Shown here piece after piece: positions 1-7,134 of a stretch of DNA of 26,815 nt. Both the position numbers and the translations under genes were made by a program. Numbering within the stretch: the first letter of the stretch is position 1; every line of letters starts with the position of its first letter. The stretch lies in the NCBI GenBank assembly GCA_025928735.1, contig JAICIW010000001.1, positions 1 to 26,815 on the forward strand, given 5' to 3'. Origin of the DNA: Rhodanobacteraceae bacterium (lineage in GTDB: Bacteria; Pseudomonadota; Gammaproteobacteria; Xanthomonadales; Rhodanobacteraceae). The notes under the pieces are model-generated. The model was not told where the DNA came from and ran no database searches. It worked only from the letters and a program-made list of their open reading frames with translations.

Positions 1-2376
1 CCCGGCACCGACGGCCTGTTGGCAGGCGCGCTGATCCACGAACTGCTGCGCACCGATCGGGTGGATCTCGAATACCTCGTGCGCTACAGCAACGCGCACC
101 ATCTGGTGATCCGCGATCCGGGCGCGACGGACGACGGACTGGTCGCGCGTGACTCGGACGGGAAACCGTTGTGTGCGGTGCGTAGTGGCACGCAAGCACC
201 GGACCCTCACCCCCGCGCTGCGCGCTCAGCGCTACACGCCGCATCTTCCGAGGGGAGCGGGGCTTTTTCCCTTCTCCCTCCGGGAGAAGGTGCCCAAAGG
301 GCGGATGAGGGTTCGGCATCGCCTTGTCGCATCGTACCCGCCGATGCGATCGACATCTCACCGGCCATCGCGGGCGAATACACGCTGCCCGATGGCCGCA
401 ATGCCGTGCCTGCGTTCCAGCTCATCGCCGAACGTTTCCTCGCCGACGACTACGCACCCGACCGCGTCGCCGGACGCTGCGGCGTCGATGCAAAAACCAT
501 CCGACGGCTCGCCGCCGAACTCGCACAGGTCGCGTTCGATGAAACGATCGAGTTGCCGATCGCCTGGACCGACACCTACGGCCGCAAGCACGACTCGATG
601 ATCGGCCGTCCGGTCTCGATGCACGCGATGCGCGGCATCGCCGCGCATGCCAACGGCTTCCATACCTGCCGCACGATCCACCTCCTTCAAATGCTGCTGG
701 GCGCCATCGACACGCCCGGCAGTTTCCGTTACCAGCCGCCATACCCGAAGCCTGCGCCGCCGGGCAACAAGCCGGCGAAAGCGCGCAAAGCCGACGGCAC
801 GCTGACCGGCAATCCGCTGGGCTACCCGCAATCACCCGAAGATTTGTTGGTGGATGAAAACGGCGATCCGCGTCGCATCGACCACGCCTTCAGTTGGGAA
901 TTCCCGCTGGCTGCGCACGGCCTGCTGCAATCGGTGATCCGCAACGCGGTGGACGGCAATCCGACGAAAATCGACACGCTGTTCCTGTTCATGGCCAACA
1001 TGGGCTGGAACTCGGCGATGGATACCGCCGCCACGCGCGAACTGCTGTGCGCGCGCGACGGCAACGGCGACTACAGGATTCCGCACATCATCTACTCGGA
1101 CGCGTACGATTCCGAAACGGTGGCATTCGCCGACTTGGTGCTGCCTGACACCACGTACCTCGAACGCTACGACTGCATCAGCCTGCTGGATCGCCCGATC
1201 AGCGACGCCGAATCCGCGGCCGATGCGATCCGCCAGCCGGTGGTCGCGCCCGATCGCGACGTGCGCCCGTTCCAGGACGTACTGCTGGATCTCGGCGCGC
1301 GCCTGAAGCTACCGAACATGGCCGACGCGGCCGGCAACCCGTTCTACAAGGATTACGCCGACTACATCGTGCGACACGAACGCGCACCGGGCGTCGGCAT
1401 GCTGGCGGGTTGGCGCGGCCCTGGTGGCGCGCAGGCCGGCAAGGGTGCCCCCAACCCTGATCAGCTGCAGCGCTACATCGAACACGGCTGTTTCTTCGAA
1501 GCAAGGATTCCGGAGTCTGGCGCCTACTACCGGATGGCCAACCGCGATTACCTCGCGTGGGCGCAATCGATGGGGTTCGTCGGCTCGACCGAGCCGGTCA
1601 CGATGCAGTTGTATTGCGAGGTACTGCAACGGTTCCGGCTGGCGGCGCAAGGGCACGGGGCGGTGCAGCCACCGGAACGGGAGCGTGCGCGCGTCGCGCG
1701 GTATTTCGATCCGGTGCCGTTTTGGTACTCGTCGCAAAGCGACACTGATTCCCTTCTCCCTTCGGGAGAGGCCGAGCGTAGCGAACGCGCGCGTAGCGCG
1801 AGCGAGCGCAGCGCGCCGGGTGAGGGTCCGAATCTTGCGCAAGCCCCGAACGCTCACCCCAGCGCTGCGCGCTCGGCCTACGGCCGCCTCTCCCGAAGGG
1901 AGAGGGGAGAAAGCTTTCCGCTCTCTGCCATCACCCAGCGTCCGATGTTCATGTATCACGCATGGGGTTCGCAGAACCGCTGGCTGCGCCAGATCGCAGC
2001 GCGCAACGTTTTGTACGTGCATCCGCGCACGCTTGCCGAACATGCCATCGACGATGGCGATTGGGTGTGGATCGCCTCGGAGCGCGCACGCATCCGCGTG
2101 CAGGTGCGCGCGCATGCGGCGACCGCGCCGGGCACCGTGTGGACGTGGAACGCGATCGGCAAGAAACGTGGCGCGTGGAAACTTCGTGCCGGCGCCCCGG
2201 AATTCGTGGACGGATTCCTGCTCAATCACCTGATCGGCGAACGCGCACGCGATGCCCGCTACGGCAACGGCGATCCGGTGACCGGACAGGCCGCATGGTT
2301 CGACCTGAAAGTGCGGCTGGAACACGATCCCGAGCCGCGGGTGCCAGGCCACCGGCTGCAACGGACGGGTGCCTGA
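1..2376 (+). CDS. soeA: Molybdopterin oxidoreductase catalytic subunit, SoeA-type sulfite dehydrogenase (quinone); 5' part lies outside the window
   Basis: Frame is open from base 1 (PGTDGLLAGALIHELL...). Family motifs include VSMHAMRGIAAHANGFHTCR, LFMANMGWNS, DAYDSETVAFADLVLPDTTYLER, QRPMFMYHAWGSQNRWLRQ and GDPVTGQAAWFDLKV. SoeB- and SoeC-like genes lie downstream. Confidence 0.85.
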   Translation, partial: PGTDGLLAGALIHELLRTDRVDLEYLVRYSNAHHLVIRDPGATDDGLVARDSDGKPLCAVRSGTQAPDPHPRAARSALHAASSEGSGAFSLLPPGEGAQRADEGSASPCRIVPADAIDISPAIAGEYTLPDGRNAVPAFQLIAERFLADDYAPDRVAGRCGVDAKTIRRLAAELAQVAFDETIELPIAWTDTYGRKHDSMIGRPVSMHAMRGIAAHANGFHTCRTIHLLQMLLGAIDTPGSFRYQPPYPKPAPPGNKPAKARKADGTLTGNPLGYPQSPEDLLVDENGDPRRIDHAFSWEFPLAAHGLLQSVIRNAVDGNPTKIDTLFLFMANMGWNSAMDTAATRELLCARDGNGDYRIPHIIYSDAYDSETVAFADLVLPDTTYLERYDCISLLDRPISDAESAADAIRQPVVAPDRDVRPFQDVLLDLGARLKLPNMADAAGNPFYKDYADYIVRHERAPGVGMLAGWRGPGGAQAGKGAPNPDQLQRYIEHGCFFEARIPESGAYYRMANRDYLAWAQSMGFVGSTEPVTMQLYCEVLQRFRLAAQGHGAVQPPERERARVARYFDPVPFWYSSQSDTDSLLPSGEAERSERARSASERSAPGEGPNLAQAPNAHPSAARSAYGRLSRRERGESFPLSAITQRPMFMYHAWGSQNRWLRQIAARNVLYVHPRTLAEHAIDDGDWVWIASERARIRVQVRAHAATAPGTVWTWNAIGKKRGAWKLRAGAPEFVDGFLLNHLIGERARDARYGNGDPVTGQAAWFDLKVRLEHDPEPRVPGHRLQRTGA
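199..316. repeat. REP/BIME-like composite palindromic element inserted in frame in soeA (copy 1)
   Basis: Outer inverted repeat ccggaccctcacc (199-211) / gatgagggttcgg (304-316), 11/13 matching. Perfect hairpin ccttctccc-tcc-gggagaagg (270-290) and gccc-aaa-gggc (292-302). Left arm 204-262 aligns with 1854-1908. Confidence 0.8.
1750..1908. repeat. REP/BIME-like composite palindromic element inserted in frame in soeA (copy 2, 159 nt = 53 codons)
   Basis: Terminal inverted repeat tcccttctcccttcgggagaggc (1750-1772) / gcctctcccgaagggagagggga (1886-1908), 22/23 matching. Inner arms gagcgcagcgcgccgggtgag / ctcaccccagcgctgcgcgctc. Central palindrome cttgcgcaag (1834-1843). Confidence 0.85.
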
Positions 2377-2459
2377 GCCTTGCACGCCACGTCGCCGTTT
2401 CATCTGCAGATAACGTCGCGCTTACCCGCTCACGCGAAAACCGCGGCACAATCGGCAGG

Positions 2460-2522
2460 ATGGTGATCTGCGTTCACCACCATACCCACGCTCACGGAAT
2501 TCGGGGGACTCGGGGAAGATGA
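2460..2522 (+). CDS. Possible His-rich leader peptide MVICVHHHTHAHGIRGTRGR (20 aa)
   Basis: Read directly from the sequence. Its stop overlaps the next ATG (ATGA). A CACAAT -10-like hexamer lies at 2447-2452. No homology evidence. Confidence 0.2.
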   Translation: MVICVHHHTHAHGIRGTRGR

Positions 2523-2566
2523 AGGTGCCGCAACCGCTCGCCGCACAGGAACGCCGCCGCCCATGA
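2519..2566 (+). CDS. Possible short coupling peptide MKVPQPLAAQERRRP (15 aa)
   Basis: Preceded by G-rich SD-like gggggactcggggaag. ATGA overlaps at both ends (2519-2522 and 2563-2566). No homology evidence. Confidence 0.2.
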   Translation: MKVPQPLAAQERRRP

Positions 2567-4320
2567 CGTGGCAGGCTTGGGCCACTGCCGCGATCATCGT
2601 GGTCGCGATGGCGATGTTTGCCAGCGAAAAGGTGCGGGTGGACCTGGTCGCCTTGATCACCTTGGGCCTGCTGGTCGCGCTTGGCATCGTCACGCCCGAA
2701 CAGGCGCTGTCGGGTTTCAGCAACGAAGCGACCGTGACGGTGGCCGCGATGTTCGCGCTGGCGGTGGGCATCGAGCGCTCCGGCGCGCTGGACCCGATCA
2801 TCAACCTGCTCTCGCGTATCCGCAATCCATGGCTGTTGTCGTTGGGCACGATGGTCACGATCGCGCCGCTGGGCGCGTTCATCAAGAATACCGCGCTGGT
2901 CGCCACATTCCTGCCGCTGTCGCTGAAGGTATGCCAGCGCACCAATACCTCACCCTCCCGCGTGCTGATGCCGATGGCATTTGCGGCACAGATGGGCGGC
3001 GTGTGCACATTGATCGGCACCTCGTCCAACCTGCTGGTGGATTCGCTGGCGCAAAAGCAGGGACTTGCCGCGTTCGGCATTTTCGAATTCACGCCGCTCG
3101 GCGTGATGCTTGCGATCGCAGGCATCACTTACATGATGGTGATCGGTCGCTGGCTGCTGCCGAAGCACTTCGACAACGCGATTTCGGGGCCACTGCAGGT
3201 CGGCAAGTACGTCACCGAACTGAAGGTAATGTCGGATTCATCGGTGGTCGGACAGACGATCGCCGAAGCGAAGCTGGGCGATCAGGGTGTGTATCCGCTG
3301 GAACTGCTGCGCGGCGACCAGCACATGTGGTCGCCGCGCACCCAGAAGCTCAGCGCCGGTGACGTGCTGCTGGTGCGCGGCGAATGGGACAAGCTGGAAC
3401 AGTTCCGCAAGCACGCGGGGCTGGAGATCAATCCGGAATTCACCCACGCCGAGAACGGCGACAAGGCCAACGTACTGGTGGAAGCCATGGTCGCGCCGGC
3501 CAGCACTGCCGAAGACCGCACGCTGCGCGACCTGGACCTGCAACCCAGCTACGACGCCACCGTGCTCGGCATTCATCGTCGCGGCCACCTGCTGCGCGAC
3601 AAGATCCGCGACGTCGCGTTCCAGACCGGCGACGTGCTGATGATGCTGCTGCCGGCCGATACGGTGAAACGCCTGCGCCGCGATGATCGCTTCGTGGTGC
3701 TGAACGAACGCGACGACGCGCGCCGCCCGCGCTACAAAGCGTTCGTCGCCATCGCGATCATGGCGGCGGTGGTGATCGTTTCCGCGCTGCACTGGCTGCC
3801 GATTCCCATCGCCGCGATCTGCGGCGTGGCCGCAATGGCGCTGACGCGCTGCTTTGGACGCAAGGACGTGTACCAGGGCATGGACTGGAAGATCATCATC
3901 CTGCTCGGCGCGATCCTGCCGCTCGGCATCGCGATGGAGACGACCGGTCTGGCGCACGTGGTGGTAAGCGGCGCGCTCGATGTCGTCGGCAACCACGGCC
4001 CACTCGCGGCACTGGCGATGGTGTACGTGCTCACTGCGCTGCTCACCGAGCTGATGGGCCACAACCCTTCGGTGGTGCTGATGGTCGGCATCGCCGTCAG
4101 TGTCGCGCACGCAGTGCACGCCGATCCGCGTCCGTTCGTGGTGGTGGTCGCGTTCGCCGCGGCGACTTCGTTCGCGACCCCGGTCGGGTATCCGACCAAC
4201 ACGATGGTGTATTACGCTGGCGGCTATCGCTTTCTCGATTTCACCAAGGTCGGCGTGCCGCTGATTGCGCTGTTCTGCGCATTGTCGATGCTCCTGGTTC
4301 CGAAAATCTGGCCATTTTGA
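2563..4320 (+). CDS. SLC13/DASS (CitMHS-like) permease with two central TrkA-C (RCK_C) domains, YfbS/SLT-like
   Basis: 585 aa. Hydrophobic N- and C-terminal helical blocks with ALSGFSNEATVTVAAMF, GGVCTLIGTSSNLLV and SFATPVGYPTNTMVY motifs flank two soluble RCK_C-like repeats. Confidence 0.88.
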   Translation: MTWQAWATAAIIVVAMAMFASEKVRVDLVALITLGLLVALGIVTPEQALSGFSNEATVTVAAMFALAVGIERSGALDPIINLLSRIRNPWLLSLGTMVTIAPLGAFIKNTALVATFLPLSLKVCQRTNTSPSRVLMPMAFAAQMGGVCTLIGTSSNLLVDSLAQKQGLAAFGIFEFTPLGVMLAIAGITYMMVIGRWLLPKHFDNAISGPLQVGKYVTELKVMSDSSVVGQTIAEAKLGDQGVYPLELLRGDQHMWSPRTQKLSAGDVLLVRGEWDKLEQFRKHAGLEINPEFTHAENGDKANVLVEAMVAPASTAEDRTLRDLDLQPSYDATVLGIHRRGHLLRDKIRDVAFQTGDVLMMLLPADTVKRLRRDDRFVVLNERDDARRPRYKAFVAIAIMAAVVIVSALHWLPIPIAAICGVAAMALTRCFGRKDVYQGMDWKIIILLGAILPLGIAMETTGLAHVVVSGALDVVGNHGPLAALAMVYVLTALLTELMGHNPSVVLMVGIAVSVAHAVHADPRPFVVVVAFAAATSFATPVGYPTNTMVYYAGGYRFLDFTKVGVPLIALFCALSMLLVPKIWPF

Positions 4321-4374
4321 CCGTCGTGCCTTCCACACTGACGACTTCCTTGTTTTTTGCCGTCCGCCTCCCGA

Positions 4375-4407
4375 GCGGGCGTGTGACTTTCTCTAGGCCA
4401 TGGATGG
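4375..4407. repeat. Partial, degenerate copy of the ~110-bp intergenic element end
   Basis: aggccatggatgg (4395-4407) is identical to 17201-17213. Upstream gcgggcgtgtg resembles gcggccgttgtg at 17182-17193. Confidence 0.4.
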
Positions 4408-4438
4408 TCGACCGCGAAACCTTCGCGGGAAGGCATCA

Positions 4439-5257
4439 ATGACCTCTCTCCCCCCGCCGGCGAAAAAAAAGCTCGGGTTGGTGATCGACCTTGATATCTG
4501 CGTCGGCTGCCACGCCTGTGCGGTCGCGTGCAAGGAATGGAATGACGGCGGCGCCTTCGGACCGCTGCCGGATGACGATCCGTACGGCGCCGAACCGCAT
4601 GGCGTGTGGTTCAATCGGGTGCATAGCTACGAGGTCACCGCTGATCGCTCGTCCGAAAACGTCAGCGCACCCGTCCCGCAAATGGTGCACTTCCCGCGCT
4701 CGTGTCTGCACTGCGAGACGCCGGATTGCGTGACAGTGTGCCCGACCGGCGCCAGCTACAAGCGCGCCGAGGACGGCATCGTGCTGGTGGACGAGGACAA
4801 GTGCATCGGCTGCCAGTTGTGTGCGTGGGCCTGCCCGTATGGGGCGCGCGAGATCGCGTTGCCGCATCCGAAAATGCCGACTTCCGACGCCGGTCGCAAG
4901 GATTCCAAGCGCGGCACGATGCAGAAGTGCACGCTGTGCGTGGATCGCATCTACAACGAAACGCTGGACGAGCACGACCGCCAGCCGGCCTGCGTGATGG
5001 CGTGTCCGACCCGCGCGCGGATGTTCGGCGACCTGGGCGATCCCGATTCCGACGTGTCGAAGGCGGTTGCCGAACGCGAAGGTTTCGCGTTGATGCCGGA
5101 GTTCGGTTACCAGCCGGTGAATCGTTACCTGCCGCCGCGCCCGCGCCGGGATGGCAGCGGGGCCGCGGCGGCTGCATCGGTTTCCGCTGAAGAAACGCTC
5201 GACACCGCGCAGCTTCCGTCCCTGCTGCGCTGGCTGGACAAGGCGTTGTCGCGATGA
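4439..5257 (+). CDS. soeB: 4x[4Fe-4S] ferredoxin subunit of sulfite dehydrogenase (DmsB/NrfC family), 272 aa
   Basis: MTSLP...KKLGLVIDLDICVGCHACAVAC, CLHCETPDCVTVC, CIGCQLCAWAC and CTLC..C..C Cys motifs. SD-like gggaagg precedes ATG 4439, which is preferred over the ORF-finder start at 4400. Confidence 0.88.
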   Translation: MTSLPPPAKKKLGLVIDLDICVGCHACAVACKEWNDGGAFGPLPDDDPYGAEPHGVWFNRVHSYEVTADRSSENVSAPVPQMVHFPRSCLHCETPDCVTVCPTGASYKRAEDGIVLVDEDKCIGCQLCAWACPYGAREIALPHPKMPTSDAGRKDSKRGTMQKCTLCVDRIYNETLDEHDRQPACVMACPTRARMFGDLGDPDSDVSKAVAEREGFALMPEFGYQPVNRYLPPRPRRDGSGAAAAASVSAEETLDTAQLPSLLRWLDKALSR

Positions 5258-6192
5258 AGCCCGCGCTCTCGGTGATTTTCTTCACGGTGATGAGTGGCGC
5301 GGGCTACGGATTGTGGTGCCTGCTGGGACTCGCACTGGCGGCGGGTATCTACCCGCTTTCCGGAATGGGCGTACTGGTGCCGCTGGGCTTCGGCTTCGTG
5401 CTGGTGAGCGCAGGTCTGCTGGCATCGACGATGCACCTCGGCCGTCCCGGGCGCGCGTGGCGAGCACTGAGCCAATGGCGCTCATCGTGGCTGTCGCGCG
5501 AGGGCATCGCCTCGCTCGTGACGTACCTGCCAATGCTCGCCATGGCGTGGTTTGCATTCATCGGCCACGCCGGGACCGGCTTGCGCGTGGCGGGCGCGTT
5601 GCTGGCGCTGGGCGCGCTCGCGACAATCCTTTGCACCGCCAATATCTATCGTTCGCTGAAAACCATCGCTGCGTGGCGCACCCGGCAGGTGCTGCCGCTT
5701 TATTTCATGTTTGCGCTGTTGTCCGGTGGCCTGTGGTTGTGGACGTGGCTGGCGCTCACCGTCGGGGCGGCGACCAGCCTCGCGTTTCCGCTGGCCCTGC
5801 TGGGGCTCGCCATCATCGCTGCGGTGATCAAGGTCGATCACTGGAAATGCGCCGACGCCCTGCCCGTGAACACGGCCGGCAATGCGACGGGCCTGGCGAT
5901 GCTGGGTCGGGTGCGCGCTTTCGAAGGCCCGGTCACGGAAGAAAGCTACCTCACCCGCGAGATGGCGTTCGTGCTTGCCAGAAAACACGGTGCACGCCTG
6001 CGGCGAATCGCGGTGACGCTGTTCGGATTGGCGCCGGCGCTGGGCATCGCGGTGGCACTGGCTGCGGACGCTGCATGGCTCGCGCCGATTGCGGCGCTCG
6101 CCGCCCTCGCCGGTCTGTTCGTGGAGCGCTGGCTGTTCTTCGCCGAAGCGCGTCATGCGGTGGCGGCGTTCTTTCCGCAAACGCAGGCTTGA
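5254..6192 (+). CDS. soeC: DmsC-family membrane anchor of sulfite dehydrogenase
   Basis: N-terminus MKPALSVIFFTVMSGAGYG, HLGRPGRAWRALSQWRSSWLSREG and C-terminal VERWLFFAEARH. ATGA overlap with soeB. Confidence 0.88.
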   Translation: MKPALSVIFFTVMSGAGYGLWCLLGLALAAGIYPLSGMGVLVPLGFGFVLVSAGLLASTMHLGRPGRAWRALSQWRSSWLSREGIASLVTYLPMLAMAWFAFIGHAGTGLRVAGALLALGALATILCTANIYRSLKTIAAWRTRQVLPLYFMFALLSGGLWLWTWLALTVGAATSLAFPLALLGLAIIAAVIKVDHWKCADALPVNTAGNATGLAMLGRVRAFEGPVTEESYLTREMAFVLARKHGARLRRIAVTLFGLAPALGIAVALAADAAWLAPIAALAALAGLFVERWLFFAEARHAVAAFFPQTQA

Positions 6193-6250
6193 AAGTCCGC
6201 ATCGCGACCCCACTCTTCGTCACACAAATTTAACAGGCATTCAGTGCCCG

Positions 6251-6270
6251 GCCCGCAGCCTTGCGGGTTT
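6251..6270 (+). terminator. Weak intrinsic-terminator-like hairpin after soeC
   Basis: gcccgca-gcct-tgcgggt followed by only a short T run. Confidence 0.25.
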
Positions 6271-6294
6271 CACCAAGCAAGATCGGAGTGATGC

Positions 6295-7134
6295 ATGAAA
6301 TTCTCCCGCATCGCCGCGTTGGCGGCGATTTCCACATTGTGCATTCCCGCCCTGGCATGGGCGGACCCACCCGCCGATGCCTCGAACTGGAGTGGCAGCG
6401 GCGAGTTCGGTCTCGCCAACGCGACCGGCAATACGAAGTCGCTGAACGTGGATGCCAAGTTCAAGATGGCGTACGAGGACGACATCTGGAAGGACGCGTT
6501 CTTTCTCGATGCCAATCGCGCCAAGAGCAACGTCAAGACGCCGATCGTGCAGGACGGCGTGGTGGTGGGACAAACCGCGACTTACCAGACCACCGCCAAT
6601 CATTTCGACATCGGCGGTTCGCTCGGCTACAAGTTCAACCCGCGTTCGTACCTGATCGGCGCCGCGCGCTACGACCACGATGATTTCGCGTCGAACCGCT
6701 GGCAGGAAGTGGCCTCGATCGGGTTCGGTTACATCATGCTGAAGAACGCGCGCAGCGAGTTGTCGTTCGAAGCCGGTCCCGGCTACAAGCGCTACCAGCC
6801 GCAGACCTACACCGTGGTCGATACCAGCGTGACGCCGCCGACCGCGACCGTGGTGAAGCCACCGGTCGAAAACGAGGCGATCGGCCGCGGCCTCGTCAAC
6901 TACAAACTCGCGCTGACCGACAGCGCCAGTTTGCAGGAGACCTTCCTCGCCGAAGTCGGCAGCGAGAACAAGTACTACCAGAACGACATCGGCATCGCGG
7001 TGGCGATGACCAGGACGCTGGCCCTGAAGATCGCGTACGAGAATCGCTACAACTCGAACATCGTGCCCGGCACCAGGCACATGGACAGCCTGTTCACCAC
7101 CAATCTGGTGTACAGCTTCGGGCAGTCTAAATAG
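6295..7134 (+). CDS. DUF481 / YdiY-like outer-membrane beta-barrel protein
   Basis: Signal peptide MKFSRIAALAAISTLCIPALAWA, WSGSGEFGLANATGNTKS, alternating beta-strand pattern and terminal TNLVYSF. SD ggag precedes the start. Confidence 0.8.
   Translation: MKFSRIAALAAISTLCIPALAWADPPADASNWSGSGEFGLANATGNTKSLNVDAKFKMAYEDDIWKDAFFLDANRAKSNVKTPIVQDGVVVGQTATYQTTANHFDIGGSLGYKFNPRSYLIGAARYDHDDFASNRWQEVASIGFGYIMLKNARSELSFEAGPGYKRYQPQTYTVVDTSVTPPTATVVKPPVENEAIGRGLVNYKLALTDSASLQETFLAEVGSENKYYQNDIGIAVAMTRTLALKIAYENRYNSNIVPGTRHMDSLFTTNLVYSFGQSK

What the first reader, a model, noticed from the sequence alone, without database searches (positions are those of the whole stretch)
1750..1908. Complete 159-nt palindromic element inserted exactly in frame (53 codons) into SoeA
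Seen: a nested inverted repeat (22/23-nt termini, inner arms, central 10-bp palindrome) starts on a codon boundary, is exactly 53 codons long, and reads without a stop as SLLPSGEA...LSRRERG. Removing it gives YFDPVPFWYSSQSDTD-ESFPLSAITQRP. From my recollection of SoeA-family sequences, that is about the usual linker length before the C-terminal molybdopterin-binding domain. Known precedent: Rickettsia palindromic elements insert in frame into proteins. Inference: this is a tolerated selfish-repeat insertion in an interdomain loop. It may be an empty non-autonomous version of the ccctcacc...ctctccc/gggagagg elements that I recall flanking DUF559 endonuclease genes.
Basis: partly seen in the sequence, partly recalled or inferred. 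Interest (0 to 1): 0.7.

Follow-up and report, generated by a model that had tools for sequence, protein, structure and literature searches.

The report
BoxC-type repeat read inside SoeA
A 159-base folded DNA repeat of the long-known but unexplained BoxC ("triplex motif") family sits in frame inside a working molybdenum enzyme gene of a soil bacterium, where it is most likely read as a floppy extra loop. Its gene-carrying relatives hold a small DUF559 nuclease that may be what spreads such repeats.

Summary
Window 1750-1908 is a 159-nt nested palindrome (DNA fold z = -7.3) that starts on a codon boundary of an intact, 5'-truncated MopB/SoeA-like gene and adds 53 stop-free codons.

It is not a one-off. 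It is an inverted pair of BoxC/PIT/TMECO units, a repeat family described in print by Holder et al. 2015. The family is dispersed in this genome, and at least 11 copies lie in frame in 9 genes, including valS, metH, hrpB, lhr and ctaA.

Insert-free orthologues exist, with a 10-12 aa linker. Related species carry other inserts at the same two hot spots. The insert is old and orthologous in at least five species. It shows no codon periodicity, yet its third codon positions diverge about half as much as those of the flanks. AlphaFold gives a confident MopB core with low confidence only at the two inserts.

The genome's only DUF559 gene lies exactly in the central loop of such an element. About 20 of 30 DUF559 loci in the genus and about 18 of 30 across the phylum are bracketed in the same way.

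Whether DUF559 moves the repeats is inferred, not shown. This scan has noted the same BoxC-DUF559 and in-frame patterns before on other genomes.

The parts
1..2376 (+). Host gene: the 5'-truncated catalytic subunit of a MopB (DMSO-reductase superfamily) molybdoenzyme, called SoeA by some annotators. It carries both in-frame inserts.
   Evidence: The frame is open from 1 to 2376. Pfam finds Molybdopterin and Molydop_binding. The AlphaFold model (pLDDT 79.9) matches Arr, Pcr, Psr and Fdh catalytic subunits. Flank dN/dS is 0.09-0.17.
1750..1908 (+). The 159-nt element: two BoxC/TMECO-type units facing each other around a central loop, read as 53 codons (residues 584-636 of the partial protein).
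1751..1771 (+). Left terminal hairpin: C-rich block CCCTTCTCCC, loop TTC, G-rich block GGGAGAGG.
   Evidence: Read from the sequence. It fits the family consensus CCCTCTCCC-N3-6-GGGAGAGGG.
1772..1817 (+). Left spacer (an expanded 'second loop'), partly complementary to 1860-1885. A close relative has 15 nt fewer here.
   Evidence: Inverted repeats I2 and I5. The same spacer type occurs in copies on contigs C148 and C390.
1818..1826 (+). Third block GGGTGAGGG of the left unit (read as GEG).
   Evidence: It fits the TMECO pattern of PMC4666352.
1827..1850 (+). Locus-specific central loop with the perfect palindrome CTTGCGCAAG (1834-1843). In gene-carrying relatives the DUF559 ORF occupies this position.
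   Evidence: The loop is conserved at this locus in five species but differs between loci within a genome. The DUF559 position is shown.
1851..1859 (+). CGCTCACCC, a one-mismatch complement of the GGGTGAGGG block (the relative L080 has CCCTCACCC).
1860..1885 (+). Right spacer. Together with the blocks on either side it is 93% identical over 61 nt to an arm of the genome's DUF559-bearing copy.
   Evidence: blastn: element positions 97-157 against C9:1545-1485.
1886..1907 (+). Right terminal hairpin: GCCTCTCCC, loop GAA, GGGAGAGGGG.
199..316 (+). Second in-frame composite of the same family in the same gene. Two units lie back to back: CCCTCACCC...GGAGCGGGG, then CCTTCTCCC-TCC-GGGAGAAGG...GGATGAGGG. 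They are partly decayed.
   Evidence: Orthologues are empty here or carry other repeats. A 72-nt in-frame indel against L080 is. pLDDT is 41-65 over residues 61-110.
2563..6192 (+). Operon context: CitMHS/TrkA_C permease (2563-4320), 4Fe-4S subunit (4400-5257) and DmsC-type membrane anchor (5254-6192).
   Evidence: Pfam. The gene order is the same on the related contig L080.

Best explanation
The 159 nt are a gene-less copy of a BoxC/PIT/TMECO-type palindromic repeat. The element is two inverted units, each CCCTCTCCC-loop-GGGAGAGGG plus a GGGTGAGGG block, around a central loop.

It entered a short, permissive linker just before the C-terminal molybdopterin-dinucleotide-binding domain of a SoeA-like MopB enzyme. 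It has stayed there, in frame, since before several species of this Rhodanobacteraceae genus split.

It is transcribed with the gene and most likely translated as a roughly 53-residue Ala/Ser/Arg/Glu/Pro/Gly-rich, probably disordered loop that the enzyme tolerates. Selection on the host gene keeps only lengths that are multiples of three and free of stops. Hairpin-prone DNA makes the insert grow and shrink by in-frame indels.

The peptide itself is not under selection. The DNA motifs are conserved, as they are in the whole repeat family.

The family's gene-carrying form holds a DUF559 (Vsr-like PD-(D/E)XK) nuclease ORF in the central loop. I take that nuclease to be the most likely agent that spreads or maintains the repeats, which would make this copy a non-autonomous relative.

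Shown: family membership, in-frame position, empty and differently filled orthologous sites, age, lack of codon periodicity, and the DUF559 bracket.
Inferred: translation into a loop, tolerance, and above all any role of DUF559 in mobility.
For: Anatomy and fold:
-.

Family:
- Partial and full copies lie on about 25 contigs, with 36 motif clusters of shared architecture.
- There are 15 TM units, of which 8 are nearly identical to E. coli TMECO (against the table).
- Holder et al. found the pattern 3610 times in 262 proteobacterial genomes (PMC4666352).

In-frame copies with Pfam domains on both sides:
- CtaA, UbiB/ABC1, ValS, Lhr (two copies), MetH, multicopper oxidase, HrpB and a Mur ligase.
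- valS is likewise variable across the genus.

Empty and variable sites:
-.
- A gene tree shows sister taxa differing in insert state.

Age:
- A contig whose flanks are 97-99% identical has the same element, with a 15-nt in-frame indel.
- Five species share the locus-specific central loop.

Selection:
- Flank dN/dS is 0.09-0.17; in the insert it is about 1.
- Flank p-distance is 0.35 at third positions and 0.08 at first and second positions. In the insert the values are 0.18 and 0.15.

Structure:
- The AlphaFold model has pLDDT 79.9 and pTM 0.84. Long low-confidence stretches fall at the two inserts (means 41-65 over residues 61-110 and 38-65 over 581-640; below 50 at 72-102, 584-588 and 607-631), with shorter dips in the C-terminal domain. 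Most flanking blocks score 90-98.
- The fold matches MopB enzymes.
- The Molydop_binding domain starts at residue 643.

RNA:
- Contigs from two metatranscriptome libraries cross the left junction (1391-1830 and 1395-1780).
- No joint removes 1750-1908.

DUF559:
- (H+ to H- distance 352-373 nt).
- E. coli ycjD ends ...CCCTCTCCC-TGA next to a TMECO copy.
- A full cassette lies in frame inside a Type ISP enzyme of the same genus.
- Hairpin number rises with DUF559 number across 57 genomes (rho 0.53; medians 24 against 12.5).
- The Vsr-like clade includes a homing endonuclease (PMC3424549).
Against: - No nuclease activity, cut site or target-site duplication is known, and I could not define a target duplication here.
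- Copies within the genome share arms but not loops, unlike typical MITE bursts.
- Only 5 of 11 gene-less loops resemble the ends of DUF559 interiors better than 97% of shuffles, so descent by internal deletion is not established.
- Genomes with no DUF559 found still hold up to 46 hairpins, and the correlation is not corrected for relatedness or assembly quality.
- The genome's own DUF559 copy is frameshifted, so nothing here can be active now.
- The RNA-library contigs may derive from DNA in the libraries and do not span the whole element.
- Translation and surface exposure are not shown.
- The aligned part of the insert is biased towards its conserved arms, which inflates the apparent nucleotide conservation.
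Confidence: 0.72

Rival explanations
1. DUF559 is a passenger. It would be a homing-type selfish gene that targets the centre of existing BoxC pairs, while the repeats themselves spread or arise by another route: host replication or repair slippage at triplex or hairpin DNA, or an unknown enzyme. The in-frame copy in SoeA would then owe nothing to DUF559.
For: - Gene-less copies far outnumber gene-carrying ones: 36 clusters against 1 in this genome.
- Genomes with no DUF559 found still hold up to 46 hairpins.
- Loops of gene-less copies mostly show no significant likeness to DUF559 ends.
- Relatives of the fold act as homing endonucleases (PMC3424549).
- Holder et al. found no link to mobile elements and favoured structure-driven instability.
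Against: - The bracket is very regular (H+ to H- distance 352-373 nt), with the ORF starting a few bases after one arm and reading through the other. That looks like one unit rather than repeated independent captures.
- The arms of the DUF559 copy and of the window's element belong to the same subfamily, spacer included (93% over 61 nt).
- Hairpin number rises with DUF559 number.
Confidence: 0.3
2. The insert has been taken over by the host. Its conserved DNA or RNA palindrome, or the extra loop, would now serve the gene. Possible roles are a translational pause before the last domain folds or the cofactor is loaded, an mRNA stability element, or a contact surface.
For: - Third-position divergence in the insert is about half that of the flanks, and the locus-specific central loop is conserved in five species.
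- Strong hairpins persist in several orthologues (z -6 to -9.5).
- The site lies at a domain boundary.
Against: - Insert-free orthologues exist inside and outside the genus.
- Sister taxa carry unrelated inserts or short remnants at the same site.
- The hairpin has decayed in L003, L007 and L011.
- dN/dS is about 1.
- The same motifs are conserved in intergenic copies from E. coli to this genus, so the conservation belongs to the family, not to this gene.
Confidence: 0.1
3. The stretch is removed before the mature protein is made (an intron-like, bypassing or intein-like event), or it is excised from the DNA in part of the population.
For: A strongly folded insert at a domain boundary could in principle be skipped. 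Contigs drop rare variants, so a minority form could be missed.
Against: - RNA-library contigs run from the gene into the element.
- No joint joins 1749 to 1909 in two RNA and two DNA runs.
- No Rfam family (intron or other) matches.
- No intein or Hint domain is found.
- The frame and the multiple-of-three indels are maintained across species, which only matters if the insert is translated.
Confidence: 0.03
4. The insert arose in place as a low-complexity expansion and is not a copy of a dispersed element.
For: The linker is a hot spot for length change.
Against: The arms and spacers match copies on many other contigs at 90-96%. They share a full architecture with copies in unrelated genes and with E. 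coli BoxC.
Confidence: 0.01

Closest known systems
BoxC / PIT elements / TMECO intrastrand triplex motifs (Holder et al. 2015, PMC4666352, and earlier E. coli work cited there)
   Same: The blocks are the same: CCCTCNCCC - N3-6 - GGGNGAGGG - loop - GGGNGAGGG. Eight units in this genome are almost letter for letter like E. coli TMECO type B. Inverted 'palindromic' pairs occur in both, as does local instability by small deletions that keep a hairpin.
   Different: In E. coli all copies are intergenic and were reported not to be linked to mobile elements. Here about a third lie in frame inside genes. The second loop is often expanded into a stem of 13-46 nt, and the pair brackets a DUF559 gene in its full form.
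Rickettsia palindromic elements (RPE)
   Same: Palindromic repeats of about 100-150 bp inserted in frame in many unrelated housekeeping genes, read as extra peptide segments compatible with the fold (PMC10969869).
   Different: There is no sequence relation, and the host lineage differs (free-living, high-G+C soil Gammaproteobacteria). RPE families encode a conserved peptide. Here all three frames are used (PLPxGEG, PSPxGRG, LSxRER) and the peptide is not conserved. RPEs have no known associated nuclease gene.
REP/REPIN-RAYT systems
   Same: Short palindromic repeats, often in inverted pairs, with a single-copy gene bracketed by the same repeats as the candidate mobilising enzyme.
   Different: The enzyme is a Vsr-like PD-(D/E)XK nuclease fold, not a Y1 (HUH) transposase. 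No Y1_Tnp was found in this 73% complete genome. REPINs are extragenic.
MITEs with in-frame or intragenic copies (ERIC, Coxiella QMITE)
   Same: Non-autonomous elements with terminal inverted repeats that occasionally fuse in frame to host ORFs (PMC10969869, PMC5896051).
   Different: No target-site duplication and no IS-type parent were found. Copies share arms but not interiors.
Vsr-like homing endonucleases (I-Bth0305I type)
   Same: The same fold clade as DUF559, and proven selfish DNA-cutting activity (PMC3424549).
   Different: Those enzymes sit in group I introns of phage genes. Here the gene sits between hairpin repeats and, when inside a gene, is read through in frame.

Membership tests
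BoxC / PIT / TMECO triplex-motif repeats | A C-rich 9-nt block CCCTCNCCC, a 3-6 nt loop and a complementary G-rich block GGGNGAGGG | tested here: met
   The right unit, GCCTCTCCC-GAA-GGGAGAGGG (1886-1906), meets it. The left unit, CCCTTCTCCC-TTC-GGGAGAGG (1751-1771), has one extra T. The genome holds 20 strict hairpins.
BoxC / PIT / TMECO triplex-motif repeats | A third block GGGNGAGGG after the hairpin | tested here: met
   GGGTGAGGG lies at 1818-1826. Its partner CGCTCACCC at 1851-1859 matches 8/9, and the close relative L080 matches 9/9.
BoxC / PIT / TMECO triplex-motif repeats | A short second loop (3 nt in the published pattern), so that an intrastrand triplex can form | tested here: not met
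   In this copy the second loops are 46 and 26 nt and fold as stems. Other copies in the genome have 4-5 nt (8 units) or 13-30 nt (7 units). This copy is therefore an expanded variant. Triplex formation was not tested.
BoxC / PIT / TMECO triplex-motif repeats | A dispersed multi-copy family, often in inverted pairs | tested here: met
MITE (non-autonomous transposon) | Terminal inverted repeats | tested here: met
   23-nt termini, 22/23 complementary. Each terminus is itself a hairpin, so the two ends are also direct repeats of each other (repeat D3).
MITE (non-autonomous transposon) | A target-site duplication at the ends | tested here: inconclusive
   The flanks of about 19 copies show only a T-rich/A-rich tendency (TTTYC...GRAAA) that may belong to the element. 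No closely related filled and empty pair was available.
MITE (non-autonomous transposon) | Derivation from an autonomous parent that shares the ends | tested here: inconclusive
   The ends are shared with DUF559 cassettes. Interior remnants are only weakly supported, and DUF559 is not a proven transposase.
REP/REPIN-RAYT | An associated Y1 (RAYT) transposase | tested here: not met
   PF01797 was not found in G000 (73% complete), while the control genomes gave hits.
Rickettsia palindromic elements | Sequence membership of an RPE family | not tested
   No RPE sequences were compared. The likeness is in behaviour only. Rfam gave no match.
SoeA (sulfite dehydrogenase, quinone, catalytic subunit) | A MopB catalytic subunit with 4Fe-4S and membrane-anchor partners in one operon | tested here: met
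   Pfam domains, MopB fold, and Fer4_11 and DmsC genes downstream, separated from it by a permease gene.
SoeA (sulfite dehydrogenase, quinone, catalytic subunit) | Orthology to the characterised SoeA, and sulfite-oxidising activity | not tested
   Only the names given by some sources support it. No NCBIfam equivalog reached its cut-off.

The most novel reading that the evidence does not exclude
BoxC/PIT/TMECO repeats, unexplained for some thirty years and reported as unlinked to mobile elements, would be the ends and gene-less derivatives of a compact mobile cassette of about 450 bp. Its only gene is a DUF559 (Vsr-like) nuclease.

The cassette and its derivatives would enter permissive loops of housekeeping proteins, be read through in frame, and be kept at the nucleotide level by the nuclease-driven copying process. 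That would make them a general source of protein-loop variation in free-living bacteria. The SoeA copy would be one such derivative.
Probability: 0.28. Interest if true: 0.85.

Novelty: new variant of a known kind. Interest (0 to 1): 0.58.

Why it matters
The repeat family is in print, but only as an intergenic curiosity with no partner protein and no known means of spread. In-frame palindromic inserts are in print mainly for Rickettsia.

This window shows both together in a free-living soil lineage with 57 sequenced species. The same family sits in frame in at least nine genes. Two loops of one enzyme have been colonised repeatedly by several repeat families. The full form of the element carries a DUF559 nuclease.

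That gives a concrete, testable candidate for the missing enzyme of BoxC-type repeats. It also gives a natural series of filled, empty and differently filled sites for studying how enzymes tolerate such loops.

It matters for annotation too. These inserts inflate protein lengths (920-1080 aa for this enzyme) and seed spurious homology between unrelated proteins (weak hits).

The scan has reported the BoxC-DUF559 link and in-frame BoxC copies before on other genomes. This case is therefore a well-documented further instance that adds selection, population and structural data, not a first sighting.

Tried and rejected
- First AlphaFold run, on the 1004-aa close relative with 47 near-identical sequences: mean pLDDT 44, unusable. 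It was replaced by a run on a deeper alignment.
- Rfam, at gathering thresholds and at permissive E-values: nothing real. The only hit was a plant miRNA hairpin far below its threshold.
- RAYT/Y1 transposase: not found in this 73% complete genome.
- DUF559 hits in long open frames upstream of hemW (L034, L041, L043): these are read-through from an element placed just before the gene, not inserts inside a protein.
- Test for internal-deletion remnants of DUF559 in gene-less loops: 5 of 11 loops scored at or below 3/100 shuffles and the rest were not significant. I count this as suggestive only.
- Target-site duplication: not resolved from flank consensus or from valS orthologues, whose 'empty' state already holds another short repeat-like stretch.
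- Reads: no contig joins 1749 to 1909. The 1770-to-1881 and 292-to-18xx joints come from other copies of the repeat in the community. Depth spikes over both inserts reflect the repeat family, not expression. A part without cover, or a missing joint in contigs, proves nothing.
- Literature searches for DUF559 with repeats, and for ycjD and boxC, found no paper linking the nuclease to the repeats. The library lacks most subscription journals.
- Stop-freeness as evidence in its own right: rejected, because 40% of shuffles are open.
Full report
**What is there.** Window 1750-1908 is a 159-nt nested palindrome.
- Its 23-nt termini are 22/23 complementary. There are inner arms and a perfect central 10-bp palindrome, CTTGCGCAAG, at 1834-1843.
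- As single-stranded DNA it folds at -64.3 kcal/mol, 7.3 standard deviations below its shuffles.
- It begins on a codon boundary of the open frame 1..2376 and adds 53 stop-free codons, SLLPSGEA...LSRRERG.
- Stop-freeness alone is not remarkable, since 40% of shuffles are open. The palindrome and its family membership are.

**The host gene.**
- The frame encodes the catalytic subunit of a MopB/DMSO-reductase-type molybdoenzyme, cut at its 5' end by the contig end.
- Pfam finds Molybdopterin and Molydop_binding.
- An AlphaFold model on a deep alignment (pLDDT 79.9, pTM 0.84) matches arsenate, perchlorate, polysulfide and formate enzymes.
- Downstream lie a CitMHS/TrkA_C permease, a 4Fe-4S subunit and a DmsC-type anchor, in the same order as on a related contig.
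- Some sources name relatives SoeA. That label was not tested further.
- Names in the protein database place the organism among uncultured Rhodanobacteraceae. The public runs that hold this DNA are soil and rhizosphere metagenomes.

**It is a copy of a dispersed, published repeat family.**
- Arms of the element recur on about 25 contigs of this 2.5-Mb, 73%-complete assembly at 88-96% identity.
- Thirty-six motif clusters share one architecture: a hairpin CCCTCTCCC-N4-GGGAGAGGG, a variable spacer, GGTGAGGG(TTCGG), a variable loop of 25-40 nt, (CCGAA)CCCTCACC, a spacer, and a second hairpin.
- This is an inverted pair of the unit that Holder et al. (PMC4666352) call TMECO, also known as BoxC or PIT motifs: CCCTCNCCC-N3-6-GGGNGAGGG-N3-GGGNGAGGG.
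- That paper found the unit 3610 times in 262 proteobacterial genomes. In E. coli it was always intergenic, sometimes in palindromic pairs, tied to local instability, and 'not associated' with mobile elements.
- Eight units here are nearly identical to E. coli type B units.
- The window's copy departs from the pattern in its long second loops (46 and 26 nt), which themselves form stems.

**In-frame copies are common in this genome.**
- Pfam domains on both sides of the repeat show real intragenic inserts in CtaA/COX15, UbiB/ABC1, ValS, Lhr (two), MetH, a multicopper oxidase, HrpB and a Mur ligase.
- With the two copies in the SoeA-like gene, that makes at least 11 copies in 9 genes, roughly a third of those seen.
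- All three reading frames of the hairpin occur (PLPxGEG, PSPxGRG, LSxRER).
- In valS the same linker varies across the genus, and a second hot spot exists near residue 240.

**Empty and differently filled sites.**
- Among 29 orthologous loci, two species of the genus and all six from other genera have only 10-12 residues between FDPxPxWY and (F/Y)PLxAxTQRP.
- In 47 database homologues this segment, measured from the FDPVPFWY motif to AITQRP, runs from 25 to 130 residues. The first hot spot, after PLCAVR, runs from 41 to 149 residues.
- The fillings belong to at least three repeat kinds: BoxC type, a classical REP-like 'RHSGESRNP...RRNDE' type, and an 'ALSPNS..GGEGWVRG...PSPQPSPP' type.
- On a gene tree built without the inserts, sister taxa differ in state. 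Examples are 60 aa against 11 aa, a 15-aa remnant nested in a filled clade, and BoxC type against REP type at site 1.
- Both loops are therefore sites of repeated gain, loss and replacement.

**Age and mode of evolution of this copy.**
- A metagenomic contig whose flanks are 97-99% identical carries the same element with six substitutions and a 15-nt in-frame deletion. At site 1 it differs by a 72-nt in-frame indel. There are no indels in about 1,800 nt of compared flanking coding sequence.
- Five species share the locus-specific central loop, so the insertion predates their split.
- Between those species the flanks show dN/dS of 0.09-0.17 with dS of 0.6-0.87. The insert shows dN/dS near 1 with much lower dS.
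- Mean p-distances are 0.35 (third positions) and 0.08 (first and second positions) in the flanks, against 0.18 and 0.15 in the insert.
- The peptide is thus unconstrained, while the DNA is conserved independently of codon position. The aligned columns do favour the conserved arms.
- Several orthologous inserts still fold strongly (z -6 to -9.5). Others have decayed.

**Structure and expression.**
- The deep-alignment model is confident except mainly at residues 61-110 and 581-640 (block means 38-65), plus shorter dips in the C-terminal domain. These two stretches are the inserts. A weakly supported helix is predicted at 589-601.
- The Molydop_binding domain starts seven residues after the insert.
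- DNA contigs from independent soil samples contain the element unchanged.
- Contigs from two rhizosphere RNA libraries run from the gene 31 and 81 nt into it.
- No contig joins 1749 to 1909.
- These libraries can contain DNA, so this is weak support for transcription and gives no evidence of removal.

**The DUF559 link.**
- The genome has one DUF559 gene (C9:1590-1891, frameshifted). It lies exactly between GGTGAGGG and CCCTCACC, with hairpins outside them.
- One of its arms, spacer included, is 93% identical over 61 nt to the right arm of the window's element.
- In the genus, 36 of 57 genomes have DUF559, and about 20 of 30 fetched loci show the full bracket. The inner distance is 352-373 nt. 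The ORF starts a few bases after one arm and reads through the other, giving ...PHPNPLPxxGEG tails.
- In a sample of 201 genomes of the phylum, 62 have DUF559, and about 18 of 30 loci carry such arms or flanking inverted repeats of at least 12 nt.
- E. coli ycjD ends ...CCCTCTCCC-TGA, with a TMECO copy and a duplicated 3' remnant nearby.
- One species of the genus has a whole cassette read in frame inside the specificity domain of a Type ISP restriction enzyme.
- Hairpin counts rise with DUF559 counts (Spearman 0.53; medians 24 against 12.5). Relatedness and assembly quality are uncorrected, and genomes with no DUF559 found keep up to 46 hairpins.
- I found no paper that makes this link.
- The fold clade includes a proven homing endonuclease.

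**Reading.**
- The finding is a real, old, tolerated in-frame insert of a BoxC-type repeat in a permissive linker.
- The step from 'bracketed by' to 'moved by' DUF559 remains an inference. A passenger role for the nuclease is a serious rival.
- Earlier notes of this scan report the same BoxC-DUF559 pairing and in-frame BoxC copies in many other genomes, and later checks priced the bold reading at about one in four. I reached the family assignment from the literature search before reading those notes, and my odds are similar.

Noticed in passing
window 199-316 (and L080:741-3755): The second in-frame composite has its two units back to back, the opposite of the 1750-1908 copy. The close relative L080 carries 72 extra in-frame bases inside the small GTGCCC...GGGC hairpin of this composite. 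A very similar 66-72-nt module sits at the same relative place in another copy of this genome (G000:C390:2186-2351). It may be a nested smaller element or a subfamily with a long second loop.
   Followed up: partly
orthologues and homologues of window 1-2376: The same two loops also hold other repeat kinds in related species: a classical REP-like one read as RHSGESRNP...RRNDE, and one read as ALSPNS..GGEGWVRG...PSPQPSPP. Several unrelated selfish repeats therefore use the same permissive sites.
   Followed up: partly
L112 (G044:C100:8000-14500), minus strand 2231-6331: A 1367-aa Type ISP restriction-modification enzyme of the same genus has a complete DUF559 domain (aa 1033-1140) read in frame inside its C-terminal specificity domain. 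It is flanked by CCCTCCCCC/GGGGGAGGG hairpins.
   Followed up: partly
L034, L041, L043: In three species a DUF559 cassette lies immediately upstream of the hemW-like radical SAM gene with no stop in between. Open frames of 560-725 aa therefore appear, although they are probably not real fusions.
   Followed up: partly
L111 (E. coli K-12 1349800-1352200): ycjD (DUF559) ends in a CCCTCTCCC block. About 100 nt downstream lies a second, degenerate copy of its last 35 or so bases, followed by a TMECO/BoxC unit.
   Followed up: partly
G000:C9:1590-1891: The only DUF559 gene found in this genome is split between two frames near codon 67, by a frameshift or an assembly error.
   Followed up: yes
L113-L142 (valS of the genus): valS has a second site near residue 240 where many species' sequences split from the query. 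That suggests another insert hot spot that is empty in this genome.
   Followed up: no
window 2563-4320: A CitMHS/TrkA_C permease gene lies between the catalytic and FeS subunit genes. The arrangement is conserved on the related contig L080.
   Followed up: partly
L090 (G207:C62), L095 (G101:C2) and G256:C40:3257-3571: Further DUF559 hits in other families of the phylum lie in open frames of 728-1358 aa. They may be more cases of cassettes read in frame inside host genes.
   Followed up: no
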